Part shown: positions 2,778 through 60,468 of the stretch, one piece after another | How positions within the stretch are numbered: position 1 is the first letter of the stretch | Layout: every line of letters starts with the position of its first letter | From: Azolla caroliniana | Lineage: Eukaryota; Plantae; Polypodiophyta | Length of the DNA stretch: 64,000 bases | NCBI GenBank assembly: GCA_043228905.1 | Contig: JBHGNT010000015.1 | Span: 12,214,001 to 12,278,000, forward strand | Direction of reading: 5' to 3' | Notes under the pieces: generated by a model | Databases searched by the model: none | What the model was told of the DNA's origin: nothing | What the model saw: only the letters and a program-made list of their open reading frames with translations | Program-made: the position numbers and the translations under genes

Positions 2778-2779
2778 AC

Positions 2780-3050
2780 GCTCTGATACCATGTAATGGA
2801 ATGGGAGGCAAGAGTGATTGCAATGCAGTGGAAGAAGATTGAGAGAGAGTGTGTGAGACAACAGAGGGAGGGAGGGAGAGAGAGAGCTCTGAAGGCAGAG
2901 ATAGAAAAAAATGTATATTAACCAAAAATACATCAAAACATAAAACATCCAACCATGACTAAGTTACAATGCGTTGGTTTATATACCAACTAAGCTAGGG
3001 AAAGTGTCCTCTCTACTATTTACAAAACTAGCCCAACATGTCCATGAGCT
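2780..3050 (-). mobile_element. LTR end plus tRNA-iMet PBS of an older LTR element interrupted by G1
   Basis: Minus strand reads ...CCATTACA-TGGTATCAGAGC (PBS 2780-2791) directly abutting the G1 LTR. Left extent of this LTR is approximate. Confidence 0.65.
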
Positions 3051-6000
3051 AGTGTGAAACCTATCTATGGGAAGTTGAGTTTGACTCTCAACACCGGGGA
3101 AGAGGCCAGATTCGGAGTCCTCAAAACCAGGACAAATCAGGACAAGGTCAAAGTCAAGGGGGAGGCCTACTTGCTTTTATCGCGGAAAGCCGGGGCACTT
3201 CCAGAAGAACTGTCGACACTTTTGGAAAGCCATTTAAGGGGAGCCGACATTCCGGATCATGGCTCGAGCCCGGAAGATCAACACACTATACTTGATGCAT
3301 GCCTAGATCTATCGGGAAGAAGTGAACGTGGCATGCGAAAATGCCGGTGAGCTGTGACACAAGAGGTTGTTCCACATGAGCCAAAAAGGGATGAGAAGAC
3401 TTGCTGGAGATAACCTCATTCCGGAGGTGAAAGACCTACAGCTTGAGAAGTGCACCGATTGCTTGGCAGCAAGCAAAACCAAACCTCTTTCAAGTCAAGA
3501 CCACCGTTGAGACAGAATGCACCATTGGAACTTGTGCATACCAATGTATGCCAAGTGGACACGAAGTCACATGCCGGATCGCAGTACTTCATGACATTCA
3601 TAGATGACCACAACCGAAAGTTGTGGGTCTCAACATTGAAGACGAAGGATCAGGTGTTATCCATCTTCAAGGAATTCCACACGAGGGTGGTAAGGGAAAC
3701 CGGTTGGAAGTTGAAGGCGGTTCGAGCGGAAAACGGAGGAGAGTACTAGGGCCAGTTCGAGGAGTATTGCCGATTGAAGGGAATCCGGTTCGAATTTACC
3801 GTGCCGAAGACGTCAAAACTAAACAGATTGGCCGAAAGGATGAACCAGGCCGTGATGGAGAGATCCAAAGCATGTTGGCACATGCTAAGTTGCCCAAGAC
3901 GTTTTGGGCTGAGGCGCTAATGACAACAACATACATGATAAACAGATCACCCTCAGTGCCCTTGGAAGGAGACTCACCGCAGAAAGTATAGACCGATAAA
4001 GACGTGTCTTACCGTGATCTGAAAGTGTTTGGATGTCTCTCTTACGTACATGTTGCAAAGGACAAGAGAGAAAAGTTGGATCCAAAGTCCCGACCATGCA
4101 TATTCCTTGGATACGGCGATGATGAGTTCGGCTACCAAGTGTGGGACTTAGTCGACAAGAAGGTCTTCCGAAGTCGAGACATAGTCTTCATGGAAGACAA
4201 GAACATTGTCGACTGGGAGTCGGAGAAGAAGATAGTGGACTCCAAGTCGACCGACACGGATCGGTCAAAAGATACAAGGACTCATCCGGCCGGAAGCCGG
4301 ATGACACTCGAAGAACCAGCCAGAGTCGAACAAGAAACCGAACCGATCGAAGAAGAAGAAGAATCTCACACCGGGTCAACTGACATAGATCAGTTGGAAG
4401 ATGCTAGGACACATATGGTCGGAAGTCGGATGTCAGACGAGGACCATGATGAACCAACCGGATTCGGACAAGAGACCGAACTGATCGAAGAAGAAGAATT
4501 GGACACCGGAGCGGAACAAGACCTGGATTCGGATTCGGATTCGGATGAAGAACAAACGGAGGAACCGGTGGCCGAAGACAAAGGAAGAAGATATCCCCTC
4601 TTGGAAAGAAGAGCCCCCCAGAGATTTCTGAATGCAGAGCATGTGTTGCTGACCGCCGTGGGGGAGCCGAAAAGCTTCGACGTAGCGAAGAAAGACACCC
4701 ACAACCGCAAATGGTTATTAAGTGCCATGCAGGATGAGATGGATTCCTTGCATGAGAACCACACATATGAACTGATGGAGTTGCCGAAGGGAAAGAGAGC
4801 GCTCCGGAACAAGTGGGTGTACAAGCTAAAACCGGGGGACGCCGCATATCCACCCAAGTACAAAGCCCACATTGTGGTGTAGGGCTTCCAGCAGAAGAAA
4901 GGAGTGGATTTCGATGAGATCTTTGCCCCAGTAGTGAAGATGACATCCATCCAGACGGTGTTGAGCATAGTGGCAAGCATGGACCTCGAGGTAGAGCAAC
5001 GAGACGTAAAGACGACATTGCTACATGGCGACCTCGAAGGAGAGATCTACACGCAACATCCGGAGGGATTTGTCAAGAAAGGGAAGGAGCACCTAGTATG
5101 CGGTTGAAGAAGAGCTTATACGGACTGAAGAAAGCTCCCCGGCAATGGTACTAGAAGTTCGACTCCTTCATGACCGACCAAGGATACCACAAGACGCAGG
5201 CCAACCACTAAATACTTGTGAAGAAGTTCGACGGAGGAGACTTCCTAATGCTCCTAATGTATGTGGACGACATGTTGATCGTCGGACGGGACCATATCAA
5301 ATTGGAATGTGGAAGAAGGCTTTGAGTTGATCATTCGCAATGAAAGATGTGGGTCCAGCAAAACGGATTTTGGGGATGTACATAATCCGGAACCGGTTGA
5401 AGAAGCAGTTGTGGCTATCACAAGAGAAGTACGTGACAAAGGTGCTTCAAAGGTTCAGAACATCGGATGCTAAGCCAGTCAGGTCGACACTTCTGACTAA
5501 CTATGTCGCATTGTTACGCACGTGCGTGGAGAAACGAGGCGGGACCACCGGGGTCTTGAACCGAAGAGCAGGTGATAGGAGGGGAAAGAGAAAGAGAGAG
5601 ACGACCGGTTACATATGAGCAAAGAAACACAGGGACACGGCCCATCAACGCAGAAGACGCGAATGGACACAGAGACAGAGAGACACAAATGTTTGTATAT
5701 TAACAAGGGACACAAAAACAATAGAGCACACGAGTGGTTACAACCGAACAGGCCGGCGAACAGATGCCGATGCCTGCTCGTCTGCGCACGAAAGGGGATA
5801 GGATGGAGGTGCTACCGGAAGCACACGGGCGTTCCTCGAAGCAGCGCGAGCCTCCTAAAAACCTGCAGAGAAGAGCAATAGAGAACAAACAGAGGAGAAG
5901 CGTTCGGTTACGGTCCGACAGCACTTCGTCCTCCTCAATGCGCTATCCCTTCTCCCTGCGTCTCCCTCTCCTTTATAGCTTCAAGAAGGGAGCCGTCTCC

Positions 6001-6142
6001 CTCATTTACTTCCTACCTACCGAATCTAACTACCCGGTTATGCCTTTGTACTTAATTCCCTATTATATACATTAAGGGCGTGCACACGTGAAGAGCCGGT
6101 TCACGCGCGCTATTCACCGATTGCGCCAAGGGATGGTTTTCT

Positions 6143-9100
6143 TCACGACATCCGCCCCCACCTAACTACGCATCCACCGGTATGCGCCAAAATTGGGTTC
6201 TGGTTGGAGAAAACTGGTCCGGGTTCCGTTTCTTCGTCCATCGGTTCGTCCTCCGTTTCGGACTGTTCGTCTTCGCTGTCCAGGCCTCTTAGATTCGGTT
6301 CGTCATCGTGGCGTTTCTTGAACGCTTTGACCCGCTTCCCTGCTACCGGCATCACCATCCTCGTACTGTCAAGTTCCGCCAGGTGATACGTCCCGTTGTC
6401 GTTGGTGCTCGTTACCACGTAAGGCCCGAACCACCGCTTCGCAAACTTCCATGTTGCTCGGTGCTGGTTGTCGAGGCTGCTTTCGTAGACTAGCACCCAG
6501 TCGCCTTCCTCGATTTTCTTTGGTCGGAGCCGGTGCGTCCGGTCGAACCGGGCTTTGTTCTTCATCCTCGCCGCCCGAAGTCTCTCCGCCGCTCATTCCA
6601 CGTCCTCTGGCCTCCGCTCGAGCTGCCATATATGCGCCGCTAGCAATTCTTCCCGACTCATTTCGTCACTCCAGTCTACTGTCGCCGAAGAGGAGATCGT
6701 TCGTTCCATCGTCATGATCGGCTTCTGTCCGAACATGAGCTCTGACGGCATGAACCCGGTTACCGAACTGTGCGTTGTCTGGTCCGCCCACAAGGCATAG
6801 GGTAACAGTCGTGGCCAGTTCCCGACCTGTCCTTCGCACGCCCGGACTAGCGCTTTGACGATCGGTTCGTGCCCGCGCTCCACCTTCTCGTTTGCCTCCG
6901 GATTGTACGCTGTGGTGAGCGAGAGCTTGACCCCTAACCGATCGAACAACCCTCGGCCTCTTCGACGTCCAACTCCCCGCGGTCAGCCACGATCTTTCTG
7001 ATGCACCCGTACCGGCATATCACGTCCTTGATCAGGAACCGACACACGGCCGCGGTCGTTTTTTTTTGCAGGGCTCGGCCTTCCACCTGGTTCGTCAGGT
7101 CCTCCAGGGCCAGCACCAGATATCGCATCTGCCCTACGCCCATCGACATCGTCACCAAATCTACCATCCATTTGAAGTGGATGGCCGGAGGGTATGTAGG
7201 GTGAAGCTCGTCCCGATGTCGAACTATGGAGTGCATCTGATAGCTCTCACAAGTTGTAACGAACCGATGTACGTCCCGGTACAGTCCCGGCCACCAGTAC
7301 TTCCCCTTTAGTTTCTCGAACGTGGCCCACGTCCCACGGTATCCAGCCCAGGGGCTATCGTGATAGGCCTTCAGCAACTCCCCCTGTTCCGCCTTCATCG
7401 CCACTACTCGGAGCGGGATGTCGTTTCTCTTCTTCAGGTGCTTCCACAAGTATCCGTCCTGGAGAAAGAATCGGTACGCTTTCTTCCGGATCCGGTTGGC
7501 CTCGTCCCTTGTCCATGACGCGTTCGGAATCATCATCCTTAAGAATCCCCCGATCTGCAGCCACTCCCCGTCGTACTTGCTTTCGTTGAAATCGTTAAGC
7601 GCCGGAGTGCTCCCCCCTTCGGTTGTTACGTAAGCCGCCTCGAAGAAGTCCACGCCGACTTCCTCGTCCTCCGAAACCATGCCGCCCTCGTCGTTGAATC
7701 GCGCCCTCGAAAGCATGTCGGCCATGACATTGTCTTTCCCGGAAATGTGTCGTATTTCCTGATTTAGGGACTTGATGTACGCTATCCACCTGAGCATTGC
7801 CAGGTCCGGGGTTGCGCATCCGGAGACCATGCCGAGAATCGGTAGGCAGTCCGTTTCAATGATTACCTCTGTCCCGATCAGATAATCTTTATCGGCCTTC
7901 ACCGCCGAAATGATACCCCAGAGTTCATGTTTAACGTAGGCGTATCCTCGTTGTCGCTCGCTGAGGACCTTCGCGCCGAACCGGATTGGGAACCGAATGC
8001 CGTCCTCATCTTCTTGGTTGACGACCCATCCGATCCCGGTCGGACTCGTATCTACCGTTATGTAGATGGGAGTGCCTTTCTCGTAGACAGCCTTCCGGAG
8101 TGCCGGAGTTGCAGCAAGAGCCTCCTTCATCTTCCGGACCGACTCCGTATGCTCGTCTCGCCACTCGAATCTTCGCCCCTTTTTCAGCAACCCGTATAGC
8201 GGTTCGGCAACGTGGGCGTAATGCGGGATCCATATGTGGTAGAATGCGCATGCTCCCAAGAACCTCCGTACCTCCGTGACCGAGTTACAATCGGGCTTCA
8301 TTGCGGAGATGGCTTCCACCTTTGCCGGAGATGGTTTCCGGCCATACGGTCCGCATAGATGTCCAACGACCATGATCTCTGATTGCCCGAAGGACGATTT
8401 CTCCCCGGAGAAGGTGAGCCTCGCGTCCTCTAGCCTCTGCAGCACCCTCTCGCAGTCGTCAATGTGCGTCGCCACGAATTTCCGGTATCCGTCTGGTCCG
8501 ATCGTTTCGTCCTTTTCCTCCACCGGACATCCCCTGATCGGGATGTCGTCCAAGAATGGCATGGTGATGTCCGGGATACAATCCCTCAACACCTTGTTCA
8601 TCGCATTCACCATGTGGGCCACCGAGTTCGTCCCTCCTTGTGGCAGGGTACACATCCGCACTAGGCCGAGAGGAGTCCGCATTGTCGTAATGTCTCTGCT
8701 CTCTACGGCTAGTTGGAACTGATCGTACCCCGAGTACAGATCACCGACCGAGTAGATCGACCTTCCGGCGAAGGCCTCCGCGAACTCGTCTATCGTTGGT
8801 CCGATTCCTGCGTTCCGAATGGTCACTCTGTTGACCGGTTGCAGGTCTTGAATGAAGCGCAACGTCCCGTTCTTCTTCGGTACGGTAAACCACCGGTTCG
8901 AGTACGGGGCACTCGACGGTTCGAGGATGCCCATATCGATTTTCTGCCTCAACAGCTCCATCAGCTCCGGGATGTGAGCTTTTGGTACTGGAATTGGCTT
9001 GAGATTCCACGACACATGCGGTACCGTGAATATCACCATCGGCTTCATGACCGTCGGGTCTACGCACCCGATCTCTTCCGGTGAGAATGCGAAGGCTTTC

Positions 9101-9729
9101 CCGTGCCTTCCGAGCATTCTCCGAAACCGGTCTTCTTCCGCCGGTAGTAGGAACCCGCCCCCACCGATTTTGAGCTCCCGTAGCGTTCTGTCGGTGAAGG
9201 TGTGTCCTATGCAGGCCGGATCTCGTAAACTGGGGTCCGATGCGACCCCCTTGATTCGCAACTCGCTGCCCTCTGGTAAGGGTGCCGCGAATGGCCTTAC
9301 CTTCCGGTCCACAGTTTTATACTTCGTGTTAACCCGGGCCGTCCGTTCCGACTCGAGCCCTCGACTAAAGTCCGCGATGACTTCGTACATTTCTTCTGAA
9401 CAAACCGGTATCGTCTGGTCCTCTTTAAGGCCCTCTCTGATCACCTCTCGCAGTATTCCCAAGGTATCGTCAAAGGAGACCGCCTCCACGGCTCCGTTGA
9501 TTTCCTCGCTGGGCCCGAGAACTCCGCACGCCCGAAGTCGCTCTTCCACCCTTGTCTTTTCTCAGCCTACGACGCCAACTATCGTACACCCTCCGTTGTC
9601 GGAGAAACAAAACTTCCTACTTATGGTACAAGGTTTCTTCGGTTTCGCTCCTATCGTACATTTGTGGGGTTTTCCCGGAGTGTCAGGACTGTCGCGGCCC
9701 CACGCCTTGGCAGCCCTCTCTAAAAATCC
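6143..9729 (-). pseudogene. pol: G2 pol (RT-RNase H-integrase), disrupted
   Basis: ORF 6934-9549 with RT (QDLQPVN, LPQG, PFLDD), RNase H (TVDTS, ETDC, ADMLSR) and integrase. Continues in 6593-6949 and 6143-6565 (WFGPY). Premature stop at 9562. Confidence 0.93.
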
Positions 9730-11873
9730 TCTCGGTTCTCGCCACTGAGGGACTCGCAGTTTCGCTCGTGGTTCGGTCGCACTGTCAGGAACTGGACCGA
9801 ATGACGCCCGTCCTGACTCTTGACCCTCGCGTAAGCCGACCCGTTGTCCAGCACCTTGGTCTCCATTCGTGCTGTCGTAATGTACGGTTCTCCCAGTATG
9901 ACCGGGTGCGAGGACGTCTCCTGCACAAAGAAGTGCTGATCTATCTCGACGTCGCCAATCTTGACTCGCACGTTTGGGCAAGCCCCATGTAGTTCCTCGG
10001 TGGCGCGCGTCGCTGCCCGTATCTTCCACCAGTGCTTGGTGTTGATCGGCCATTTCCCCTTTTTGTAGAAGTCCATGGACATCAGGTTTATTTCCGAATT
10101 GTGGTCCACCAGCGCCACCACCGGTTCTTGAACATCTCTGATCTTCACCGGGGTTTCCGTGGTCGCTCGGGCCCAGTGTGGCCTCGAATAGTGGCTCTCC
10201 GCCCACTCGTCTTCCAGCGCCATGTCCTCTATGTGCGCCGTCCGCACCTCCACCGGCCTTTCCGGTTCTGCCTCCATCCACAGCCTCTTCCTCTTCACCA
10301 AGTCCACGATGGAGTCGTGGAACTCCTTCTTGGCGATCCCGAGCACCTCCCACAACGACAGTTCCACTTTGTTGTCGAGGATTCGTTCTTCCAGGACCTT
10401 TCGTAGGTCCGTGGTCCTTTCAATCTCCGTGCCCAAACGGTATCCGCCCTTCTTGAGGTTATCCCGGGCACTGGACTCACCGGCCTTGTTCCGTTTCAGC
10501 CCGAATCAGGATTCGTATCTTTGTGAGGGTCCGGCCCCTCCGGTTTTACCTACCCGCTTGTCTTCAACCAGAACCTCGTAGTTCTGGCAAGCTGCGTCGA
10601 CGAACCCCGTCTTTTCTTTGACCGGGTCACTCCACCCGGTTACCTCCTGGACCCGCTTCTCCGCGCGGTCCGCCTCGTCTCTCTTTAGTCGGGCACCGGC
10701 GAGGCCTTCCAGCACCGTCGGCCAGAACCCGGCTTTGCTCTCCTTCCGGGCCTCGCTGCCTCCGACCCGAATACCAGCTGACGCTGAGTAGTGGACGGTC
10801 TCCGCGTGCCAGGCTGCCGCTTCTTCCATCAGCCTTTTCATTCCTCCTCGCCCGTCGTTTCGGTTCAGGGCCCTCCGGGTATCGCTGGTGTGCACCCGAC
10901 CTTCCCACAGGTACACTACCCGGCTTCTCAAAGCCTCCATAAAGTCCCCGCAGTCTTTCCGGATGTGGCCGACCTCGTCGCACCACATGCACCTACTTCC
11001 TACGGGAGGCCGTCGATCACGAGCCTGATCGCCGCCTTCCCTCGGAGCTTGGGCGATCTAGAGATCCTTTACCGCTCGTGTCAACTCCTCCAGAGCCGTT
11101 CCCCCGGACGAGCCTCTGATCACGCCGGTCGAAGACGAACCGGTTTCGAGCCACTCCTGGGTCTCTTCCCTTCGCGCCTGCAGTATCGGTTCGAGCTTCC
11201 TTGCTGTGACAGGTCCTGCCCCGGTCGCCTCTGTATCAGCCCACTCCCACCGTTTGTCAAAACGGCCGCAGACTCTCTTTACCGCGGCCCAGTCGGTCGT
11301 CAGCCCGTCTTCGGTTTCCAGTAAAGAGCCAACTTGCCCCCGATCCCGTGCGTCAACCGATTTGACAAACAATAGGACACGACTTGTGTCCAGAACAGTC
11401 CGATCGAGCGCCGAAAGGCGCACAAAGCGTTCCTCAAACTCCCGGAGGAGTACCGACGCATTTCTTCCTTTGTTGGGGGACTCCACCCACGCCATGAAGC
11501 CCCGCTTCGAAAGTCGAAGCGCGTCATCCAGCCCATATTTCTCCAGGAGCCGTCTATCGAACTCCTCCCAGGTCCGGCTCTCCGCCAGGACCTCGAGCAC
11601 CTCCGCATGGATGCCCAGCATCGCCACTCGAGGGAATCCGGCAAGATGCCTCTCTTCCGGAATATCCCTCATCAACATCTCTGCCCGGTAGGACGCCAAA
11701 TAACTCGTGGCATCCTTTCCATTGAACCGGCCGATCATACCGACGATCGCCTCAATAGCCCTGTCAAGGGCGCCGGTGCCCTCGCGCGCGCTCACTATCT
11801 GGTCCACGGCCGAAGCCATGGCCTCTGCAAGATCCGACCCCCTCATCTTCTGCTCCTCTGCCGCCTGTTTCAC
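9720..11873 (-). pseudogene. gag: G2 gag-protease ORF (broken by stops/frameshifts)
   Basis: ORFs 11058-11873, 10506-10988 and 9720-10436. CX2CX4HX4C knuckle, protease ALVDHNSEINL, ends ENREDF-TAG. Confidence 0.9.
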
Positions 11874-13279
11874 GTCGGGTTCACCAAATATGTCGCGTTG
11901 TTACGTGCGTGCGTGGAGAAACGAGGCGGGACTACCGGGGTCTTGAACCGAAGAGCAGGTGATAGGAGGGGAAAGAGAAAGAGAGAGACGACCGGTTACG
12001 TATGAGCAAAGAAACACAGGGACACGGCCCGTCAACGCAAAAGATGCGAATGGACACAGAGACAGAGAGACACGAATGTTTGTATATTAACAAGCGACAC
12101 AAAAACAACAGAGCACGCGAGTGGTTACAACCGAACAGGCCGGCGAACAGATGCCGATGCCTGCTCGTCTGCGCACGAAAGGGGATAGGATGGAGGTGCT
12201 ACCGGAAGCACACGGGCGTTCCTCGAAGCAGCGCGAGCCTCCCGAAAACCTGTAGAGAAGAGCAATAGAGAACAAACAGAGGAGAAGCGTTCGGTTACGG
12301 TCCGACAGCACTTCTTCCTCCTCAATGCGCTATCCCTTCTCCTTACGTCTCCCTCTCCTTTATAGCTTCAAGAAGGGAGCCGTCTCCCTCATTTACTTCC
12401 TACCTACCGAATCTAACTACCCGGATATGCCTTTGTACTTAATTCCCTATTATATACATTAAGGGCGCGCACACGTGAAGAGCCGGTTCACGCGCGCTAT
12501 GCACCAATTGCGCCAAGGGACGGTTTTCTTCACGACAACGGTGGTTGTAGAAGCTGGTAAAGAGGTAATCTGGATGAAGGACTTCATCAGAGAGCTAGGG
12601 TTTTGGCAGGAGGAATTCCGGCTCCACTGCGACAATGAAAGTGCCATCCACCTCACGAAGAACGCTGCCTACCACTCTCAGACGAAGCATATCCAAAGGA
12701 GATATCATTGCCTCCGGGAGAAGGTAGAAGATAAAGAGTTCGTGCTGACGAAGATCCATATGGAGGAGAATGGGTCGGACATGTTGAGCAAGGTGTTGTT
12801 AGTAGACAAGTTGGACATGTGCCGGAGAAGAATTGAAATGACAAGACATCCCATGTTGGAGTGAAGGGGGAGCTTGTTGGGAATTCGGTCCAAGGACATA
12901 TCTGTAAATTTGTTTCTAAAGTCATATAAGTATAAATATGAGTTAGGGCAATCACGTTAGTATAATGTGTAGAGATATTGTTGTATAGACATAGAGAGAG
13001 CATGAGAGGAGAATGTGAAATACAGAAAGCTTTTTTGTTGTAACCGTCGGTTGGTGAAGACATAGAGCTCGAGGTCGTTGCCTCTGAGTCTCATTCTATT
13101 GTACCCCTTCCTCTCATAGTGATAGTTGGAGTCTGTGGGCTCCCGTGGTTTTTTCCCATTTTGGGTTTTCCACGTAAACATCTAGTGTTGTCTCATACTG
13201 TGTAAGTGCATTAATCTAATCTCCATTGAGTGATTGAGACTCGGTTGTGGCCGAGCGCTATTTCGCACATGTTTTTCAA

Positions 13280-33910: not shown

Positions 33911-33932
33911 GGAGGCGGCAGAAGAGCAGAAG

Positions 33933-42678: not shown

Positions 42679-42733
42679 GGATTTGAACCTTGCACCTCTA
42701 AGGTAAGAGGCAATTACCTTACCACTAAAGCTA
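42679..42733 (-). promoter_or_regulatory. tRNA-like Pol III promoter cassette in the G4 5' LTR (copy at 45684-45738)
   Basis: Minus strand: TAGCTTTAGTGG (A box), 32 nt containing a GCCTCT/AGAGGT hairpin, then GGTTCAAATCC (B box), with T-runs downstream. Confidence 0.65.
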
Positions 42734-46740: not shown

Positions 46741-47036
46741 GTAAAATAAATCTGTTTTGAACATGCATGCTCATTTTGTAAGAAATCAAGCAATAACACA
46801 AGAGATAGGAAGAAGGTAACAGGGAGAGAGAGATCAAGAAACTAACAATTGTATTTCTCACACCACATGAATAGTGGTTACAATGTGTATATATAAGAGA
46901 GAGGGTAGTTACAAAACGTTGTCGCGTTGTTACACGCGTGCGTGTAGAAGGGCGGGACCACGGGGGTCTCAGACTAGGGAAGAAGGGAAGCCAAGAAGAC
47001 GATTCCGGGTGCGTTCCGGAAGCAACCGAATGGGAG

Positions 47037-50021
47037 AGAAAGAAAGAAAGATGTATTAACGTCTTCTAAGGCCAAATTTTGCCCATGAGACAATTGGTTT
47101 ACAACAATAGAGTATTTATCCAGTCATCATAACTAAAAATAAAATTAAGTAAAAAAAATAGAACTTAAACTAAAAGAGTTCTAGTAGTGTACAATATGTA
47201 GTATACTCGAAAGTGACTATACACTAAGCCTAATTTTATTTCCACCCAAGCCTCTCGAAAAGAAGTGGGGGGTCAAAGGGTCTTGATGTGGGTGCCAATG
47301 TAGAGAGTGCCCTAGCCATGGCTTCTAGGCGGTGTAGCTCACGTTCCCTTATTTTCAATATTGCTTCCACATCACGTTGAGTTGCTTTGAAACCCGGCAC
47401 CCGAGGATGTCTGGTTCTTCTCTGGTTTTCTACCTCATCAATGGAAAGGCCGAGTGGTGCAAGTGTGTCGGCATTCGTTGTCTCCTCAGGTTCTTGAAAA
47501 ACTACATTTGTTACATGTTCGTGATCATTAGCAACATTATTGTCAACATTTTGTAATTTATTCTCTCTGTGTTGTTTTAGCTCTAGAATGTATTTGCCTA
47601 ATTTCTTTATATCTAGAGTATCTAATAGTTTGGGGAGGGTGGGAGACGGACCAAGTATGTCTTGGTATTTTGCCCTTATCTCGGCATAGGTTGGACACTT
47701 GCATGTAAAGTGGTACTCATCCTCTATCTCTATGTGACATAACCTACATATCCTTTCCTCCCTAGGGACTCCACTAGTACGGCCATTTTCAATCTCAAGT
47801 TGGTGAGATGATATTCTAAGTTGTCCAATGGCAACCCTTAGTGCATGTGGTAAGAATACATCTAGATATTTTGGCCGCGTGATAAAACCTAACTCAGAGA
47901 AGTGCATGAAGTGTTTCTTATAGTACGACATTTTAGATGGGAGTGGCTCTAGTGGGGTGATCCATTTACACCGAATGTAAATTTGCCATATTTCTTGGCG
48001 TATTACTTTATTGCGGTTCTCATGAGAGATTAAGGTGTTATCACTCGTGTGGTTGTACCTAAGGGGAGGTAGGTTATTAATGTCTAGACCATTCGCAAGA
48101 AGCCAAGTCACCATCATGCCATACCATGAGCTAGTATAGCCGGACTCATACAATGATCGAGAGGCCTTAAAGGCTTGATGAGATATTCTATCATGTGGTT
48201 GGCTATGTATCCTATCAATAAAGACTACAAGTTGAAAAAGTGCCTCTACTAGCATTGGGGGTAACGTGAACTCGGCCCTAATAATGTCATGTGGTACAGT
48301 CGATTTGCTTCGGAGTTGGCGTGATAGCATCATCACCAATGGTCTCTCTAATTGCATCCACATGAAGGATGGTAATCCTGGAGCCCAAACCGCTGATGCA
48401 TACATGAGGGAGGGGGTCACTAATGAGTCAAAGAGCCACCCTTTAGTCTGTGGCTCTTGAAAGTGTGCTTGGTGGCATTGTCTCTCTAGGAGTGAGAGGG
48501 ATGCATGTCCTCTCGTGAGTCTATCCTTCGCTGCCTGTGTCATCGAAAATTTACCTGAGCGGGCACTAAAAGTGACTCCGAGATATACGTACGATCCAAC
48601 CACCTCGACTGGGCTATGGGAGATAGTTAGGTGACACTTAGCTCTAACTTGGGCCGATGTGTGGAAGATAAGGACTTTCGTTTTCCCTAGATTCACTACC
48701 AATCCTCGTTGTACACAAAAGTCATCTAAGGCATTGAGGTGCCTCTGTAGGTCATGTTCGGATTCAGAGAGCAAAACTATGTCATCCGCATAGAGCAAGA
48801 TACGAACCTGCGTATCCCCAAGGACCACTCCGGTGCCTCCCTCACGAGCAATAAAATCTGTGATCTCATCAATGTAGATCCCAAAAAGCGTCGGTGATAG
48901 GGGGCAACCTTGTTTTACACCAATAGTGCTAGTGAAACGATTGGATAGGCCACCTGGGCATCGGACACACCCGGACACTTGTTCATATAGTGCGTAGATG
49001 GCCCATACCATATCATCTGGCATCCTCAAGCTTTTAAGTCGATCAGACAACCGATCTCTAGGGACTGTGTCAAAGGCTTTGCGGAAGTCCACAAAACAAC
49101 AATATAATCTCTTCTTGCGAGCCCTAGTTTGGTCAATTAGGCATCTAAGTGTGAAGATGTGATCAATAGTGGAGAAGGCTCGTCTAAAGCCAGCTTGTTC
49201 AGGTGCACGAAGGTTTAGGGTCTCCATGTAGTCGCTAAGCTCTGCTTCCATTACTGCACCATATAACTTAGCAAGGGTATGGCCTATCATAATGGTCCTA
49301 TATGTATTTGGGTCCATGGGGTCCCCCCCTTTATGTATGGGGGTCACTGTATTCATAGTCCACTGTGGTGGAAAACCCTCCGCAAGGGCACGATTGAAGA
49401 TTAGAGTTAGCAAGGGAGCTAGGCACTCTCTCGCATATATAATGTGTTCTGCTCGCAATCCTGTGTGGTCCATGAACTTCCTATGTTGTAATTTCTTTAT
49501 GACCTTCATGACCCTAGAGGTCGTGAAAAGTGTCCCCGTGGTAGGCTGGGGTGTGGAAGGCATTGGAAAAGGTGGTTGGTTTGGGATTTGGTAAAGTCTC
49601 TCTGTATATGTGTGCCAAGTTTCGGGATCTTCGATGGGTGTTTGTGGTCTTGGCTCCCGTAGTCTCTTCCATGCCGTGGCGCAATCGCTACTCATGAGCA
49701 TATGGTAGAGTTCCCAGTATTGGGATGCCTCCCACGCTCGTCTCTTACGACGTGTCATCTTACGCATTTCTTTGCGAGCTTGTGTGGAGGTAATACTACC
49801 ATTGAGTTGCGATACTATAAGTTGTCTATGTAGGTCCCTATAATCCTCGTCATACCATTTATTTTGTGGCATTGATCCTGATCTACCTTGATTTGAGTGT
49901 TTTGTATATGGGAAACTGCTAGCTGCTGCGGAGTGAAGGATGTGTGTGAGTTTTGTACTAAGGCTTTCTAACGGTAGAGAGGGATCAATGGAGGGGAGAT
50001 GGGCCTGAACATGTTGAGAGT
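47037..50021 (-). mobile_element. 5'-truncated LINE L-B (RTE-X-like) with (CTTT)n tail, inserted in the G5 3' LTR
   Basis: G5 LTR sequence stops at about 47037 and resumes at 50022. Tail reads AGAAAGAAAGAAAG on plus. No clear TSD. Confidence 0.9.
47236..50021 (-). CDS. Uninterrupted LINE ORF2 part: RT plus C-terminal Cys/His motif, endonuclease missing
   Basis: QAGFRR, FVDFRKAFD, GVKQGCPLSP, LLYADD, YLG, and SSHQLEIENGR..REERICRLC..EDEYHF..C. First in-frame ATG at 49872 gives 878 aa. Confidence 0.9.
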
Positions 50022-51429
50022 AGCGCGCACTTGACCCCGACTCACACCCATACACGCACACACCACGCCGACCCAACTCACGCCCTTATGTACAGAAATG
50101 GAGGTAAGAGAACACCAAAAACACCCGCACACTAACAAAGACACGGATATGCACAGACAAACGTAAATGTATATATAATAAGGGGAAGAATACATCCCCG
50201 GCTTCGAGCTGGACCAAGGTAGATTACAACAGTCGTCGGCTGCCAAGCCGCCGGTCGGGGAGCTCACGGGCTTGTTGCATTGAGCGGGGTCTTGCGCAGG
50301 AGACGAGCTGAAGCAAACCCTAAGCGAACGCGAAGGGGGGGGGGGGAGAAGAAGAAGAAGAAGAAGAAAAGAAGGAGCGAATGTAACTAACTCTAAATCT
50401 AACGGTATACCCTCTAACGCAAAATGGGCAACCCTTTCACAAAGGGCGCTCCCTTCATTTTATAGAACAAGGAGAGGGATGCGTTACAATGTGGGATAAA
50501 TCCCGACTTACATGGGATTCTCTGTCCCGACTTGACTCCTACTATTCACACGTTTATGCCAGGGTGAGTGCACATGGTGCACACCGCCGATTCTCTCGAT
50601 ATTCTCCGATTCCGCCTAGGGACGGTTTTCTCCACGACATCCGCCCCCACCTAACCGCGCATCCACCGGTATGCGCCAAAATAGACTTTTTGCTGGAGAA
50701 GACCGGCCCGTGCTTGCCCTTCGTCCTTCAGATCGTCATTCGCTTCAGACCGGTCCATCCTCGTGTCGCTTGCCACTCTGCAGGCTCATTTGTCCCGTCG
50801 ATGGGTCCTTCGCCGCGATCTCCGTAGTACGCGTACTTCCGCTGGCCCTTGTTCAGCCGTATGCACGCCCCGCTCTCCGCCGTATGCCCAATGTCCTCCA
50901 CTTGAGGAACGCTCATAGTGGCCCGCTTGGCCTTCGTCGACCATTCATGTTGACATGATTGCCGTCCCATGTTGTTTCGCATTGCCTTCGTCCTCTCGCC
51001 GCCACCTTCCTTCCCCATGGTCTTAAGTCGCCATGTCAGCTCGAACCGCCATGGTCTTTGAAACGGTGTGGAGGATCCTCCTTTGGCCTTCTATGCGCTA
51101 ACTCCGAACCGCGTAACTCGTCTCCGCGCTCGCCTTTCCGCTCCAGCACCTCCGTGTGCCGCATACCCTCGTCCGTTGTTTGGCACTGCCTGTGCCGCAC
51201 TCCGTCTCGTAGTCACGCTTCGATCCGGCCCGCTATGGTCACTTGCGAGACTCTTCTTCCGTCCTAGGTGTGCCTTTCCGGCCCGACACACCTCCCCGTG
51301 GCCGCCCCTACCAGCTCCTTCCGAAACCGTAACCAGTTGGTAAGGGTTTCGCACTTCGTCCGCCCCCGTCTTACCGACTCCCGATCCGCTATCTCGTGTT
51401 GCCGGATCCCATTCCTTGCCGTCACCGTC

Positions 51430-52620
51430 CTTCTCCCTAGGTCTCACGTTGCCACGTTGGCCGAACTGCCGGGGTCTCTGGATCGGTGTGAGGGTCCCAT
51501 AGGACCGGTCTTCATTTCGTTGCTTACCGAAATTTGGGTGTCTTTTGTTTGAGTCCCTCTTGGACTCTCCTCGTGTCTTCCGCATAGTCGGGTCCCGTTT
51601 CCCGCCGCCACCAGCCTTCTCCCTAGGTCTCACGTCGCCACGCTGGCCGAACAGCTGGGGTCGCCGGTCTGGTGTGGGGATCTCGTAGGACCGGACTTCC
51701 TTATGCCCGTGACCTTGCCGGTAGGTCTTTCAATTCGTAGCCGCTTCGCCGGCCTGATACCCTCTTTCTCCGCTTTCCGTCGTCCGATCACGTTCACCTG
51801 CCGCCACCGATCTCTCCTATAGGACTCATGCCGGCTCTCGGGCCGACCACCGGATCGGTGTGAGGATCTTTGTGGGACCTCGGTTTGCCCGCCTTGCCGC
51901 CGCCACTGTTCTTCACTCTAGGTCTCACGTCGGCTCTCGGGCCGACCGCCGGAGTCTCTAGAACCAGTGTGTGTAAGGTCGCCGCAGCACCACTCGCCGT
52001 CTGGTCACATTCACCTGCCGCCACCGACCTCTCCTATAGGACTCACGCCTGCACTCGGGCCGACAACCGGATCGGTGTGAGGATCTCCGTAGACCGCCCT
52101 CGTCCGTAGTTCTTCGCCTTCGTCCCCTCGCCGCCACCCTCAGTATCTTGGTCTTACGTCGACCGCGTCGCTGACTGCCGAAGTCTCTAGAACCGGTGTG
52201 AAGGATCATCCCCTGGCCTCCTATTTCTCTTCCTGACCCTGTCCCCGGTCGTTCTTTTCCGCATGCCGAGAGGGCGGTTTGCTCCGCACCCTCTCCTGTG
52301 GTACCGATGTACCGTGTCCTCGGCCTCTTCGTCCCTCCTGGAATGGTTATCCGGGAGTTCGCTCCACCCGGTTCTCATCCGGGTCCGTTGGTCATTCTCC
52401 GGATTGTTGGGTCCCGTTCTCCTGTCGCCACCGTCCTCTTCTATAGGACTCACGCTGACACTTGGGCCAATAGCCGGATCGGTGTGAAGATCTCCGTAGG
52501 ACCGGTCTTCGTTCTCCCCTTCATCCCTTGTACTTCTCTAGAACTCGTCGTTGCTCTCCTTCTCGCGTACCCGCCTCCATCTCCCATCTCTCTAGGTCTC
52601 ACATCGGCGCTCGTTGCCGG
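51430..52620 (-). repeat. Degenerate GC-rich modular repeats inside G5
   Basis: CTATAGGACTCA..CCGGATCGGTGTGA.GATCT at about 51815, 52033 and 52441. CTAGGTCTCAC at about 51437, 51623, 51918 and 52592. Confidence 0.7.
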
Positions 52621-53164
52621 CTGCCTGAGTCTCCAGATAAGACGTGGTGTTTCCGTCCTGTAATGATTTGCGGACGCTCGTTCGGGGTACCGCTCCCAAG
52701 CACGTTCGGTGAGAAGCATCTGGTCTGTGATCAACCAAGCCCCGCCTGGGCTTGATTCTCCAATGTCCAGAGTTTCGGCTCCGATGCCGACCTTGCCAGA
52801 CTCGTTATGAACCTTTGATCACTTCCCTTTCCAATTCCCGACCTTCGCTCGGTCGGTCTTTCTCCCCATGTAAAAGAGGGCGGCTCGTCCCGCACCCTCT
52901 CTCGTATCGGCACCTTCATGCCGTATCCGGTCCCGATCGAACAATCCACGACCGGATTACGCTCCACCCGTATCGGAGCGTCGCGTGGTTCGGTCCCCGG
53001 CCGGGTCGTTCCTTGGTCTCTTTGTCGACCTTTTCGCGGGCCATCTCCCATCCATCTTCGCTGGCATCGTGCCAGGACTCCCCGATACCGTCATCCTTCT
53101 CCTCGGTCTCATATGGGCATAAGGGCCTGAATGCCGAGTTCTCCGGAATCGGGTCCGAGGGCTT

Positions 53165-54373
53165 TCATCCGCTCCTTCCTCGTATCGTCTCGCCGGTGAT
53201 TCTCAGTCTCTCGCCGCCGCCTTCCTCCTCTTGGGACTCACGTGGGTACTCGGGCCCGACTGCCATCGTCTTGGGAGCAAGTGTGGGAAGACACGAGGAA
53301 TCGCCCGTCCATTTTACGCCCCTGTCCGTAGCCACCGGCTCTTTGTGGTCGGCGGTCGTCTCCTTACCGATCGCGCAAGCCCCGCCTGGGCTTGCTTCTC
53401 CACTGACCGAGGTTTCGGGCTGACACGCCCGACACCGCTGGTCCCAACGTTCCGATTCCGTGATCGGTATCTCGGCCTCTTCCTTGGCCGTTCTATCTCC
53501 GCAAGTCGAGAGGGCGTTTTGTTCCGCACCCTCTCCCATGGTACCGTGGTACCGTTCTTCCATCATCGCGCGGGGCAAGTCCGTCTCCTCGGCGTCGACT
53601 AGTGGCCTCGGTCTTTCCTCTTCCTCGAGCATCGCCTTGAGAGCCGCGTACGCTTTCGCAATCCTCGCCCCGAAGCCGAGCCTTGCAGACTCTCTTTGCC
53701 GTTCGGCCTCTTCTCGCTGTGATGGCACGCCGTCGCGCGCGTTCCTCTTAGCCTTCTCGGCTTGCTCGTCATCTAGCCGTTGGCACACCCTTCTGACCTT
53801 CGACCAGTCCTCTGTAATCCCATTCGCTCCGTCATCGTCTTCGAGCTCAATCCCGATGGCCTCTCGTTCCGCTTGGTCGATTGACTTCACGAACAACAGG
53901 ACTTTGTCCAGCCCCACCAAACCTTGTTCCCGCTCCGGGAACCGAGCAAGCCGTCGCTTGAACTCTTGGAACGCCTTCGTTGCACCCCAGTGGGTCTTTG
54001 CCGATGCTACCCACTGGTCGAAGTCGTGCCGTCCCTAGCTCTTCCGCCGTCCTCCATATGCCTGCAGGAGCGCCTCTTCAAAGGCCTCCCACGAACTATG
54101 AGCTTGTCGGAGCTCCTTCACTCTCGCGTGCATACGGACGACGACAGCCCGATAGAAGAACTCCAGCCTCAATGCTTCGTCCACGTCTCTCTCCTCCATT
54201 TCCGCATTGTAGGCTTCCAAGTAGAATGGGACCTTGTCCCCGTTGAACCGGCCGACTCTTTCGACCACGCATTTGACAACTTGCTGTGCCGACTCTCGTC
54301 TCATCACCACTCGTGCCGACTCCAACACCACTTCAGCCACCATCTCCGCGAGGTCGTCGTCTTCCGACTCCAT
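53165..54373 (-). pseudogene. G5 Gag-like ORF (in-frame stop at 54035)
   Basis: VGRFNGDKV..YNAEMEER..LRLEFF, VLLFVKSID and GITEDWSKVRRVC. Closest to the G4 ORF. Confidence 0.82.
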
Positions 54374-57300
54374 TCTCCCTTGCCACCCTTCACGTCGTGT
54401 TCACCAAATATGTCGCGTTGTTATGTGCGTGCGTGTAGAAGGGCGGGACCACGGGGGTCTCGAACTAGGGAAGAAGGGAAGCCGAGAAGACGATTCCGGG
54501 CGCGTTCCGGAAGCAACCGAACGGGAGAGAGAAAGAGAGAGAGCGCGCGCTTGACCCCGACTCACACCCACACACGCACACACCACGCCGACCCAACTCA
54601 CGCCCTTATGTACAGAAACGGAGGTAAGAGAACACCAAAAACACCCGCACACTAACAAAGACACGGATATGCACAGACAAATGTAAATGTATATATAACA
54701 AGGGGAAGAATACATCCCCGGCTTCGAGCCAGACCAAGGTAGATTACAACAGTCGTCGGCTGCCAAGCCGCCGGTCGGGGAGCTCACGGGCTTGTCACGG
54801 CGAGCGGGGTCTTTCGCAGGAGACGAGCTGAAGCAAACCCTAAGCGAACGCGAAGGGGGGGGGGAGAAGAAGAAGAAGAAGAAGAAGAAAAGAAGGAGCG
54901 AATGTAACTAACTCTAAATCTAACGGTATACCCTCTAACGCAAAATGGGCAACCCTTTCACAAAGGGCGCTCCCTTCCGTTTATAGAACAAGGAGAGGGA
55001 TGCGTTACAATGTGGGATAAATCCCGACTTTCATGGGATTCTTTGTCCCGACTTGACTCCTACTATTCACACGTTTATGCTAGGGTGAGTGCACATGGTG
55101 CACACCGCCGATTCTCTCAATATTCTCCGATTCTACCTAGGGACGGTTTTCTCCACGACAACATTTTTATAAAAGAGGGGTACTTTAGAAATTTCTTACT
55201 TTATTTCATAATATATTTTATTTTCCTACTAATATTATTTTTTATTTTTTATTCTAATACCCCCCATAACATAAAGAGTTTATTTTTCTTTATTGATCTT
55301 ACTAATACTAAGAGCAATTTTATTACAACAATTCCAATCCTTTTGTTATGGTACTGGCTTCGTAAAAAAATCAACCCACATTGTTGTAGTAGATGTGTAA
55401 TGTAAAGACATTTCTTTTGCTTCTACCAATTCTCGAATAAAATGATGCCGTGCTCTTATATGCTTACTTTGATCTGTGATCTTTGGATTGATAGCTAGCT
55501 TAATGCATGATTGATTGTCGCAAAATACTTTGACTTCATTATGCTTTATGATGTCGAGCTCTTCGATGATCGTCTTTATCCACAATCCTTCTTTTGCCGT
55601 TAATGCCGCTGCAACATATTCCGCTTCGGTACTAGAAAGAGCCACCAATACTTGACTTTTGGTTCTCCATGCAATTGCTCCATCGGCGAATGTGAAAACC
55701 ATACCAGATGTTGAGTGGAGGTATCAACACCCCCCCCCAATCGGAATGCGTCCAACCAACTAATGGTGTTTGGAGCCAACCACTAAGTTGGGACGAATTC
55801 CTAGATTGGAAAGACTTGTATGTTAGACCTGTGTCTTTAATGTATTGTAGATAACAAAGAACTTGCTTTAAAGCATTCCAATGAGCTACTCCGGGATTAT
55901 GCATAAATCTAGAAAGAAAACCAGCTGAGTAAGACAAATCCGGACGTGTACAACTCACAAGGTACCTTATACTTCCAAGGATTTGTCGATAAGGAAGTGA
56001 TTTCATGAGTTGCTCTTCTTCCACTGTCTTTGGACTATCATTGGATGATAGTTTGCATGGTACGGTCATTGGTGTTGCAATAGGTTTACAATCAGACATC
56101 TCGAACTTGTGAAGAATTTCTTCGATCAACTTACGTTGCGACATGGTAAGTGTGCCTTCCGTCCTATTCCTTGTTACCTTGATACCAAGGAATACTCTAG
56201 TGGTCCAAGGTCTTTGGCGGGAAACTTCTCCTTGAGTTGATTTATAATCTTTCACATTGAAGTAGTAGAGTTAGAGGCAATTGGCAAATCATCAACATAG
56301 ACACCAATGATTACATAGTCACTTCCTTCTTTACGAATGTAAAGATTTGGCTTGGCTTGAAGACGCCAAAAATTAATAGACATTCTCTTCATCCAGCACC
56401 CTATGCAAGAATGCCGTCTTGACATCCAATTGTTCGATCTCCAAATTCATGCTCACAGCAATGCTCAGAATAGTTCAGATGGATGTCATCTTCACGACAG
56501 GTGCTTGCGAATATTTCGTTGAAGTACTGAGGGGGACTTGATCAGGTAAATAGCTATGTACATCACCTTAGCCCAGTACAATTTCAGCATTTTAGCGTGA
56601 GAGAGCATGCTCCTTACTCTCTCCATGATTGTTCGATTCATCCTCTCTACAAGCCTGCTCAACTCAAGGGTCTTTGGAACAATGTATTTGATTCGAATAC
56701 CCTGGGCCTTGCAGTATTCCTCAAAACTGCCCTTTATATTCGCCACCATTGTTAGTTCGGATAGTCTTTAGCTTCCGACCCGACTCTTGTTCGGTTCTTG
56801 CCTATAACTCCTTGAACATTGACAGTACCTTATCCTTCGACTTCAGTACAAAGGCCCATGTCTTCTGATATGGTTGTCAATAAATGTCACGAAGTACTGT
56901 CCACCTCGATGTGATGGAACATCTACATAGCACACATCTGTGTGCACTAGTTCTAGTGTAGCTTCTCTTCTTCTTGGTGGTCTTGTGTGGAATGCTGCCT
57001 TGTTCTACTTTCCGAATAAGCAATCGACACACTTCTCCAAGTGTACTCCTTTCACTTTTGGGAGAAGTTCCTGGTCGGCCAGGATGTGCATTCCTTTTTC
57101 ACTCATGTGGCCGAGCCTCTTATGTCATAACTCTCCACTCAAGTCGGCTGCCACATTCACTTCCGACTTGCACAATCGGGCATGCATCATATATAGTGTG
57201 CCCTCTTTTTGTGCTCGTGCCATTATGAGGTTTCCACCGCAAAACTTCCACTTGCCATTTCGGAAACTACCAATGTAGTCTTCATCATCCAATCTTCCAG

Positions 57301-58728: not shown

Positions 58729-59582
58729 TGTCGTGCCTTTCGGCTCCGGATCGTTGCGTGAGTCGGGTGGGAACCGCTGGGGTTTTGGACTAGGAGGAAA
58801 GAAAATTCTAAGGCAATTAAGAATATGAAATATATTATAAGAAAGAAAGATATGAAAAACTCGTGAATCCCACGAGTATAGTGTATTAGTGAGTACTCAA
58901 ATTAAGAGAGAAAAATAGTTAGCAAACTCGTGGATCCCATGATTATATTATATTAATCATCCCTTGTAAAAATAATCAACAACCTCTATACATCTTTCTC
59001 TCTTCCTTATATAGTCTTGGAAGAGTCTAAGTTTATCCCATGCAAGCATCATGCTTTTCCTATCTTTAGTTTTCATGCACACTGCATGTGCATGATTAGC
59101 TTTCTATCTCATCTTTTCTTTTAACTCGAGTGTCTATGCATGAATAACTTTTTGTACCATGCATGTCTAGAATATTTACATGGGATAAAGTTTAGTATAA
59201 CTTTAAAATTCATAATACGCTAGTATAATGGTAAGGCTTAAAAATCGTTAACATGGAGGTACAGGGTTCGAATCCTGCTCTATGCATGTAACAATCTTTT
59301 TTTCTATTTACAAATTTGTCTCTTCATCCGGTTCTCACTGGTTCCTCCTTACCAATTCCATCCTTCATCCGGTTCCTCCTTACCAATTCCATCCTTCATC
59401 CGGTTCTCACCAGGTCTTCCTTACCGGTTCCTCCTTCCGGTTCTCACCGGGTCTTCCTTACCGGTTCCTCCTTCCGGTTCTCACCGGTGTCATGCCTTTC
59501 GGCTCCGGATCGTTGTGTGAATCGGGTGGGAACCACCGAGGCTTTGGTATTTTTCATGTAGTGTATGATTCACACTACGACA
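58729..59582 (-). mobile_element. 854-bp solo LTR of the Trp-primed Gypsy group, TSD ACGT
   Basis: TGTCGTG...TACGACA flanked by ACGT (58725-58728, 59583-59586). The U5-like GGGAACCGCTGGGGTTTTGGAC motif sets the orientation. Short tandem repeats at 59320-59487. Confidence 0.85.
59221..59303 (+). promoter_or_regulatory. tRNA-like Pol III cassette within the solo LTR
   Basis: A box TAGTATAATGG 59221-59231, consensus B box GGTTCGAATCC 59265-59275 within a CAGG/CCTG stem, T7 run at 59297-59303. Confidence 0.68.
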
Positions 59583-60468
59583 ACGTAGTGCAATAGAGGC
59601 TAACAACTATTCTGTTCTACTCTATGATTACCCTATGTGTATTTATACTTGTACACTGTATGGGCTATTTACAAATGTATCCACTGCTACTGCCATTCCT
59701 ATTATAACAATAATAGTTATTCAGCCGAGGGAATTCGACTAATCGACTCTAGTGTCGACTATCCAGTCGGCCTTATCTTTGACCATCTGATCGGCCTGAC
59801 TAGTTGGTCATCGTCTTCGACTTGGACTCTCCTACTGTCGACTCTCCATGTCTTCGACTGTCGGCATTGGGCATGACCAATCAGCTGCACCCATAGGAGG
59901 GACATATTCCTAACACAAGGTTGTTGGCATTGCTCACACTCACACTCTCTCACACACTCTCTCCAACACACTATGCACACAATTCTCTTCGCTACACATT
60001 GGCTTCACACAAGTTTTTCCCTAAAGTTTCATATTTATGGGAGGGAGAAAGTTATCACTATTATTATTACTATTACTACTACTACTACTACTACTAATAA
60101 TCGTTAATCAATTGACGAATCGACTAGTCGATTCAACTAGCCGACCGCTTTGTCAACTATCAAGTCGACCTTGTCTTTGACTTGGATCATCTATTTCCCT
60201 ATGTTATCGGCTCTCCACATGGACTCTTTCTTGTCTTCGATTTTCGGCTCCTCCTTGGCCCGACTAGTCGGTTATTCCTTGTCTTCGATTGTCGGCTCTT
60301 CCTTGGCCCGACCAGTCAGCTCCTCCCATAGGAAAGACATAGCTCTAATAGTATGTGATGCATGCTAAGTTGTGCAAGTACGAAGCAAATGTGGCAGATG
60401 ACTCGAGTGGTGGGATATGGCACAAGAGGCTAGGACACATGAGCGAGAAAGGCATGCATATCCTAGCC

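What the first reader, a model, noticed from the sequence alone, without database searches (positions are those of the whole stretch)
2778..59586. Gypsy lineage that integrates at CpG-centred ACGT sites (4-bp TSD)
Seen: four insertions have ACGT-type duplications: G3 (33274/40236), G4 (42538/46210), G5 (46916 ACGT / 55161 ACAT, a CpG transition) and the solo LTR (58725/59583). Removing G3 or G4 plus one ACGT restores the host reading frame. Other ends read ACGC (2778), ACGG (12538), GCGT (25575), ACAC (27387) and ACGT (27392). Only 5500-5503 (ACTA) breaks the pattern. Unrelated LTRs in the window have ordinary 5-bp TSDs (ATTTG, CCAAT). Known: most plant LTR elements make 5-bp TSDs with little sequence preference. 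Inference: the integrase has no chromodomain, so it may read ACGT or methylated CpG directly. That would steer the family into older TEs, and every insertion here whose host can be identified is inside another TE.
Basis: partly seen in the sequence, partly recalled or inferred. Interest (0 to 1): 0.82.

Follow-up and report, generated by a model that had tools for sequence, protein, structure and literature searches.

The report
Phygy-type retrotransposons inserting at CG sites
These plant retrotransposons really do insert at 4-base sites with CG in the middle (most often ACGT), but this habit is already published for the Phygy lineage, to which they likely belong, and whether DNA methylation plays a part is untested.

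Summary
G3, G4 and the solo LTR carry ACGT/ACGT duplications; G5 carries ACGT/ACAT. The CG belongs to the host: inner LTR borders abut the PPT and PBS. In 74 filtered LTR flanks from metagenome contigs, 69 are NCGN (background 3.2%) and 28 are ACGT; T first or A last is avoided (4 seen, 40.6 expected). So the rule is VCGB, with ACGT the mode rather than the target. The ACTA exception is a breakpoint: about 440 bp of host are missing there.

It is not new. Neumann 2019 (PMC6317226) defines Phygy as chromodomain-free Gypsy with 4-bp NCGN duplications (100% of 186 elements) and a tRNA-Trp PBS (81%). These elements match in TSD, compact layout, and lack of chromodomain and aRH. Placement in a tree with labelled Phygy sequences was not possible, and the Trp identity is recalled.

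The likely mechanism is readout of the central CG by the integrase on a sharply bent target, plus the general intasome dislike of T first and A last (PMC4422553). Methyl-CpG reading and steering into older TEs are not shown.

The parts
1..2777 (-). G1: 5' part of an autonomous-type copy (5' LTR about 2085-2777, PBS, gag-protease); runs off the window start
   Evidence: gag 93% identical to P0123
2778..2781 (+). G1 5' flank, GCGT on the element strand, directly behind the Met-type PBS of another minus-strand LTR element
   Evidence: Met identity recalled
5504..12537 (-). G2: 7034-bp copy, LTRs 647 bp and 96.5% identical, gag-PR and RT-RH-IN with stops and a frameshift; inserted in a Copia RT-RNase H region
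5500..5503 (+). ACTA: edge of a host deletion of about 440 bp, not a TSD copy
12538..12541 (+). G2 5' flank, CCGT on the element strand
25579..27386 (-). Old LTR-A related to the G4 LTR; flanks GTGT and ACGC on its strand, not a matching pair
27396..28591 (+). Old LTR-B, 67% like LTR-A, head to head with it; 5' flank ACGT at 27392, 3' end uncertain
33278..40235 (+). G3: 6958-bp copy, LTRs 612 bp and 98.0% identical, PBS at about 33893, gag (DUF4100)-protease, overlapping RT-RH-IN frame, SH3-like integrase tail, no chromodomain, PPT before 39624; one stop before the protease and one in the integrase linker
33274..33277 (+). G3 left TSD ACGT in LINE ORF1 (right copy 40236-40239)
42542..46209 (+). 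G4: 3668-bp non-autonomous copy, LTRs 663 bp and 99.7% identical, distant gag only (37%), same PBS core and PPT
42538..42541 (+). G4 left TSD ACGT inside the LINE RT Y-V-D-D codons (right copy 46210-46213)
46920..55160 (-). G5: non-autonomous copy (5277 bp without the LINE at 47052-50015 that splits its 3' LTR), LTRs 96.0% identical, distant gag only (39%)
46916..46919 (+). G5 TSD ACGT; the other copy at 55161-55164 reads ACAT (CpG transition); host is the 3' end of a Copia element
58729..59582 (.). 854-bp solo LTR with TGTCG/CGACA ends and ACGT/ACGT TSD (58725, 59583), inside a Copia-type LTR; lineage and orientation unverified

Best explanation
These are Ty3/Gypsy LTR retrotransposons, likely of the Phygy lineage, that insert with a 4-bp duplication centred on CG, likely because their integrase reads the CG step directly on a sharply bent target. 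Shown: the 4-bp stagger, the CG centre (69 of 74 outside sites), the avoidance of T first and A last, no strong preference further out, and the same pattern in pol-less copies G4 and G5. Inferred: G4 and G5 are moved in trans by the integrase of G1-G3-type copies; the 4-bp stagger needs a strong central bend that favours a pyrimidine-purine step, as in the foamy-virus intasome; the T-first/A-last avoidance is the general intasome rule; the narrowing to CG alone needs base contacts, the best candidate being a long conserved basic loop in the SH3-like C-terminal domain. Methylation is likely tolerated rather than required. Nesting in other TEs follows from TE density and from CG supply.
For: TSD pairs and frame continuity. 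74 filtered flanks: 69 NCGN against 3.2% background, p about 1e-96; ACGT 28 of 69 against 4.3 expected; TCGN/NCGA 4 against 40.6; columns -5 to -12 mixed. Central step CG 69, CA 2, TG 1, TA 0, although TA, CA and TG are each twice as common as CG in the flanks. 3' flanks: 17 of 21 NCGN. In four runs, loose ends pile up exactly at the A of ACGT (19, 27, 21, 17 contigs) and depth falls 13- to 19-fold just outside it. Phygy row: 4 bp, 100%, NCGN; tRNA-Trp 81%; no extra domain (PMC6317226). 4-bp retroviral sites favour a central YR step and disfavour T at 0 and A at +3; PFV Arg329 of the C-terminal domain contacts bases at the edges of the site (PMC4422553). The integrase model matches PFV and Ty3 intasomes best. 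The loop motif L-x-x-Q-H...K-F-x-x-R-W is 97-100% conserved in the 74 of 120 homologues that the pattern caught.
Against: No labelled Phygy sequence was obtained, so no tree. G2 and G3 (7.0 kb) are shorter than the published Phygy range of 7656-9968 bp. That the loop touches the target is an analogy; the model has no DNA, pTM is 0.55, and no residue-level match to PFV Arg329 was made. Only 3 of 11 outside LTRs with both flanks had identical flanks, 1 more differed by a CpG transition, and 7 did not match; chimeric short-read assembly is the likely cause but was not shown. The outside flanks come from 13 assemblies with neighbouring accession numbers, so perhaps one or few hosts. Sequence cannot separate methylated from unmethylated targets.
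Confidence: 0.65

Rival explanations
1. The integrase needs or strongly prefers methylated CG, so the element reaches silenced DNA without a chromodomain.
For: No chromodomain. All six identifiable hosts in the window are TEs. CpG-type transitions are common in the LTR pairs (30 of 59 substitutions) and in 3 of 5 non-NCGN outside flanks, so these regions are methylated at some time. Phygy is reported among the families enriched at centromeres of the liverwort Apopellia (PMC12885004, passage).
Against: All of this is expected after insertion in a TE-rich genome. Flank CpG o/e is 0.66-0.76 with a wide spread (0.0-1.32), not the depleted state of old methylated DNA. No methylation data were seen.
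Confidence: 0.2
2. The pattern is only indirect readout: the intasome takes any easily bent pyrimidine-purine step.
For: Central YR enrichment and T-first/A-last avoidance are general for 4-bp retroviral sites (PMC4422553).
Against: TA is never used (0 of 74), and CA or TG only 3 times, all readable as later decay of CG, though these steps are more common than CG. The paper calls retroviral base preferences weak.
Confidence: 0.07
3. A host DNA-binding protein, such as a bZIP factor on ACGT cores or a methyl-CG reader, tethers the intasome to these sites.
For: ACGT is the commonest site and is, from recall, the plant bZIP core. Ty3, the nearest solved relative by sequence, is targeted by TFIIIB (entry title).
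Against: A bound factor would cover the bases that are cut. 41 of 69 CG sites are not ACGT, and there is no G-box-like preference further out.
Confidence: 0.06
4. The flanking CGT/ACG bases are part of the element ends, or the matches are chance.
For: The ends and flanks together form a longer inverted repeat (ACGT-TGTCG..CGACA-ACGT).
Against: 3' LTRs are preceded by the PPT and 5' LTRs are followed by the PBS, in the window and in 34 + 3 outside loci. The outer bases of the 4-mer vary (17 different 4-mers in 74). The host frame and the empty site use those bases.
Confidence: 0.01

Closest known systems
Phygy lineage (non-chromovirus Ty3/Gypsy; Neumann et al. 2019, PMC6317226)
   Same: 4-bp TSD with NCGN; compact internal region filled by gag-pol; no chromodomain, no aRH, no extra ORF; PBS read as tRNA-Trp (recalled).
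   Different: Defined from Physcomitrella patens elements of 7.7-10.0 kb; G2 and G3 are 7.0 kb. Here the motif resolves to VCGB with ACGT as mode, and pol-less partners (G4, G5) share it. The paper's per-element TSD table was not seen, so the finer bias may already be in it.
TatI lineage (same paper)
   Same: 4-bp TSD (100% of 4 elements), tRNA-Trp PBS (75%).
   Different: TatI has an aRH domain in all members and is about 9 kb; no aRH found here; no NCGN preference listed.
Selgy lineage (same paper)
   Same: Short non-chromovirus, 4-bp TSD (96%), overlapping gag and pol frames.
   Different: tRNA-Ala PBS (90%), 4.4-6.7 kb, no NCGN preference listed.
Prototype foamy virus intasome (PDB 4bac, 4e7k; PMC4422553)
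   Same: 4-bp stagger, central pyrimidine-purine step, T first and A last disfavoured; best fold match to the integrase model.
   Different: PFV preferences are weak and cover any YR step; here CG takes 69 of 74 sites. The position matching PFV Ala188 is acidic or deleted here, depending on the alignment.
Riccia sorocarpa Gypsy polyproteins (such as P0022)
   Same: Closest named homologues: 61% identity over 946 residues, with DUF4100 gag and the same C-terminal loop.
   Different: Annotated only as hypothetical proteins; their TSDs and lineage labels were not seen.

Membership tests
Phygy | Groups with REXdb Phygy in RT-RH-INT trees | not testable with these tools
   No labelled P. patens Phygy sequence came; named hits were Riccia, Chara and distant animal elements.
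Phygy | Ty3/Gypsy order PR-RT-RH-INT | tested here: met
Phygy | 4-bp TSD | tested here: met
   4 of 4 complete window pairs fit 4 bp only; empty site.
Phygy | NCGN target motif | tested here: met
   69 of 74 filtered outside 5' flanks (76 of 84 before the likeness filter), 17 of 21 3' flanks.
Phygy | PBS complementary to tRNA-Trp | tested here: inconclusive
   All five window copies share the PBS core. Its complement is an 18-nt small RNA ending in CCA, listed as miR894 and mapped to gypsy repeats (PMC5846777). That it is the 3' end of tRNA-Trp is recalled; searches gave no confirmation.
Phygy | No chromodomain and no aRH | tested here: met
   No such Pfam match in the G3 integrase tail or in P0003, P0004, P0022 at E up to 0.1; none listed for the 120 homologues shown.
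Phygy | Short element with coding sequence filling the interior (published 7656-9968 bp) | tested here: inconclusive
   Layout met; 6958 and 7034 bp lie just below the P. patens range. The paper calls size a weak character.
TatI | aRH domain | tested here: not met
Chromovirus (Galadriel, Tcn1) | Integrase chromodomain | tested here: not met
   The tail is an SH3-like domain followed by a short acidic stretch.
Selgy | tRNA-Ala PBS, 4.4-6.7 kb | tested here: inconclusive
   Full copies are 7.0 kb and the PBS is recalled as Trp, not Ala; tRNA identity not confirmed by a tool.

The most novel reading that the evidence does not exclude
The Phygy-type integrase is itself a 5-methyl-CG reader: its conserved C-terminal loop recognises the methylated central CG, which targets insertions to silenced DNA without any chromodomain or host tether.
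Probability: 0.15. Interest if true: 0.75.

Novelty: new member of a known kind. Interest (0 to 1): 0.27.

Why it matters
The lineage trait is published, so the finding as written is a rediscovery. What is added is modest: a quantified VCGB rule with ACGT as mode, shared by non-autonomous partners, and a candidate loop in the integrase. Phygy is the one plant LTR lineage with a reported sequence preference (PMC6317226), and searches found no paper on its mechanism. If the integrase read methyl-CG, it would be a new route to heterochromatin targeting and a possible tool for CG-directed insertion.

Tried and rejected
No whole genome is held, so the genome-wide logo was replaced by a metagenome scan and two lays on related runs. 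No RNA holder was listed; expression was not examined. tRNA check: 31 viral-collection matches to the PBS core held no tRNA gene; a paper search gave only cancer tRF reviews (listing only). Labelled Phygy sequence: not found in homologue searches, cluster members (10 clusters, no organism names), the Atlas (gag nearest to DUF4100 clusters of Streptophyta and Basidiomycota) or the supplements of PMC7466625 (no PBS match). PMC5014426 and PMC2864245 (passages) gave no TSD data for Ylt1-like elements. Earlier findings of the scan: three look-ups, nothing. Rejected: 5-bp TSD; ACTA as a counter-example; 25575/27387/27392 as a TSD pair; a longer palindromic target (columns -5 to -12 mixed), although the G4 site and, read with ACGT, the G5 site each lie in a 10-bp palindrome. 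Rows dropped before the count: of 90 non-PPT matches, 3 PPT variants, 3 duplicates and 10 that failed an LTR-likeness filter (5 look like chance hits: AAGG, CCGA three times, CGGT; 5 are probably real: ACGG, CTGG, ACGT, GCGA, CCGT). The tally left out one doubtful 3' end (L066); with it the count is 17 of 21.
Full report
Setting. No genome is held for this window. The window is a nested pile of Copia, LINE and Gypsy pieces. The host is a plant by its TE content and homologues: the closest named proteins are from the liverwort Riccia sorocarpa (61% over 946 residues), and the gag is nearest to DUF4100 clusters of Streptophyta. The species was not determined.

Anatomy. Five related elements share TGTCG..CGACA termini (one or two LTR ends are decayed), one PBS core and a nearly identical PPT. 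G1 (cut by the window edge), G2 (5504-12537, minus) and G3 (33278-40235, plus) are autonomous-type: gag with DUF4100 plus protease in one frame, RT-RNase H-integrase in another. G4 (42542-46209) and G5 (46920-55160, with a LINE in its 3' LTR) have only a distant gag (37-39%) and no pol. LTR pairs are 96.5, 98.0, 99.7 and 96.0% identical. The integrase ends in an SH3-like domain and a short acidic tail; Pfam shows no chromodomain and no aRH.

Check of the observation. G3, G4 and the solo LTR have ACGT on both sides; G5 has ACGT and ACAT. Only 4 bp fits. G3 lies in LINE ORF1 and G4 in the Y-V-D-D codons of the same LINE's RT; the frames on the two sides agree when one 4-mer is counted. A contig of run X9 continues from the left G3 flank straight into the right flank with one 4-mer. 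G1 and G2 each give one clean flank, GCGT and CCGT on the element strand. ACTA at 5500 is the edge of a deletion: the host Copia stops late in RT and resumes inside RNase H, about 440 bp short by comparison with another Copia in the window. The ends at 25575, 27387 and 27392 belong to two old head-to-head LTRs related to G4's LTR, with no matching pair. The solo LTR has no similarity to G1-G5 beyond its ends. Inner LTR borders abut the PPT and the PBS, so the CG is host DNA.

Test beyond the window. 34 matches follow the PPT. Of the other 90, 16 were dropped (3 PPT variants, 3 duplicates, 10 not LTR-like); 74 remained. 69 are NCGN, 3 are CpG transitions of it and 2 are other, against 3.2% NCGN in the adjoining DNA (p about 1e-96). 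Without the likeness filter the count is 76 of 84. ACGT is 28 of the 69 (4.3 expected, p 2e-16), ACGG/CCGT 18, ACGC/GCGT 11; sites with T first or A last number 4 against 40.6 expected. First base: A 47, C 18, G 8, T 1. Last base: T 45, G 16, C 10, A 3. The rule is thus symmetric VCGB. 3' flanks give 17 of 21 NCGN. Against this: only 3 of 11 LTRs with both flanks had identical flanks, 1 differed by a CpG transition and 7 did not match, likely from chimeric assembly through near-identical LTRs (not shown). The real loci come from 13 assemblies with neighbouring accession numbers, so they may stand for one or few hosts. Separately, in contigs of four runs (three studies) the commonest listed loose-end place before the LTR is the A of ACGT in three runs and tied with the PPT place in the fourth (19, 27, 21, 17 contigs, unlike flanks); depth falls 13- to 19-fold just outside it (51 rows not shown, and this lay can only show ACGT-like flanks).

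How it likely works. Shown: 4-bp stagger, CG centre, edge avoidance, and the same pattern in pol-less copies. From the literature: retroviruses with 4-bp duplications bend the target sharply, favour a central pyrimidine-purine step and disfavour T at 0 and A at +3; PFV Ala188 and Arg329 make the base contacts (PMC4422553, abstract and passages). That explains the V and B. It does not explain CG alone: TA is never used and CA/TG only three times, though each is twice as common as CG in the flanks. Direct base readout is therefore inferred. An AlphaFold model of a natural intact integrase (mean pLDDT 81, pTM 0.55) matches PFV and Ty3 intasomes best. Two conserved features are candidates: a long basic loop between the first two strands of the C-terminal domain (97-100% conserved core in the 74 of 120 homologues caught by the pattern) and an acidic residue three places after the second catalytic Asp (98 of 98 caught; it aligns to PFV Ala188 in one alignment and next to a one-residue gap in the Ty3 alignment). 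Neither was shown to touch DNA. Methylation cannot be judged from sequence. CpG-type transitions (30 of 59 LTR-pair substitutions) show methylation after insertion at most. The claim of steering into older TEs is weak: 18 of 73 outside flanks match window TE proteins (a lower bound; several are the family itself), flank CpG o/e is 0.66-0.76, and old methylated DNA loses the CG target.

Comparison with what is known. Neumann et al. 2019 (PMC6317226; passages, section 9 and Additional file 5 read) state that Phygy elements are the exception among plant LTR retrotransposons in preferring NCGN; the table gives 186 elements, 4 bp (100%), tRNA-Trp 81%, 7656-9968 bp, no extra domain. Its per-element table (Additional file 1) was not seen and may already hold the VCGB bias. 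PMC6911290 (passages) also reports mostly 4-bp TSDs for Phygy and Phygy nested in Tcn1. PMC12885004 (passages) reports Phygy in a liverwort and its enrichment at centromeres. PMC7466625 (passages and supplement searches), PMC8282616 and PMC9002660 (passages) add nothing on targeting. TatI shares the 4-bp TSD and Trp PBS but has aRH; Selgy has an Ala PBS; chromoviruses have a chromodomain. Membership in Phygy is likely (about 0.9) but rests on features, not a tree, and the Trp identity of the PBS is recalled; its complement is the small RNA listed as miR894 (PMC5846777, passages). Searches (listings) showed no paper on the mechanism of the Phygy preference; the library lacks most subscription papers.

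Verdict. Real, well supported and largely known: new families of a known lineage with its known target rule, sharpened here to VCGB. Interest 0.27. The open and testable point is whether the integrase reads methylated CG (probability about 0.15-0.2).

Noticed in passing
window 46296-46740 (+): Two exon-like pieces of an ATG7 gene (PDB ATG7 matches at E 9e-10 and 3e-5) lie between the truncated LINE and G5; the second piece shows a frameshift, so likely a pseudogene fragment.
   Followed up: partly
window PBS copies, such as 33893-33910: The PBS is the exact complement of the 18-nt small RNA listed as miR894 and mapped to gypsy repeats in Cryptomeria (PMC5846777); likely a tRNA 3' fragment that could silence these elements.
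   Followed up: partly
window 32860-42538 and 47052-50015: G3 and G4 both sit in one LINE copy (ORF1 and RT), while an 88% identical LINE sits inside the 3' LTR of G5: the two families have inserted into each other.
   Followed up: yes
window 2778-2791: G1 inserted directly behind the Met-type PBS of another LTR element, using a CG that such a PBS can supply; a possible recurrent hotspot.
   Followed up: no
window 58726-58788 and 59485-59547: The solo LTR repeats its own first 60 bases (87-88%) about 100 bases before its end, next to short tandem repeats.
   Followed up: no
window 25579-28600: Two old G4-like LTRs lie head to head, 9 bases apart, one with a 232-bp internal duplication; origin unexplained.
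   Followed up: partly
loci L015, L038, L084, L088, L090, L097, L105: Several outside copies are inserted into elements of their own family, which is CG-rich.
   Followed up: partly
loci L002, L072: LTRs preceded by a PPT and followed by a PBS, that is tandem elements sharing an LTR or collapsed assembly.
   Followed up: no
window 1-12000 and 32000-40000: The autonomous copies are 56-62% GC with CpG o/e near or above 1.0, against 0.27-0.6 in much of the surrounding DNA.
   Followed up: no
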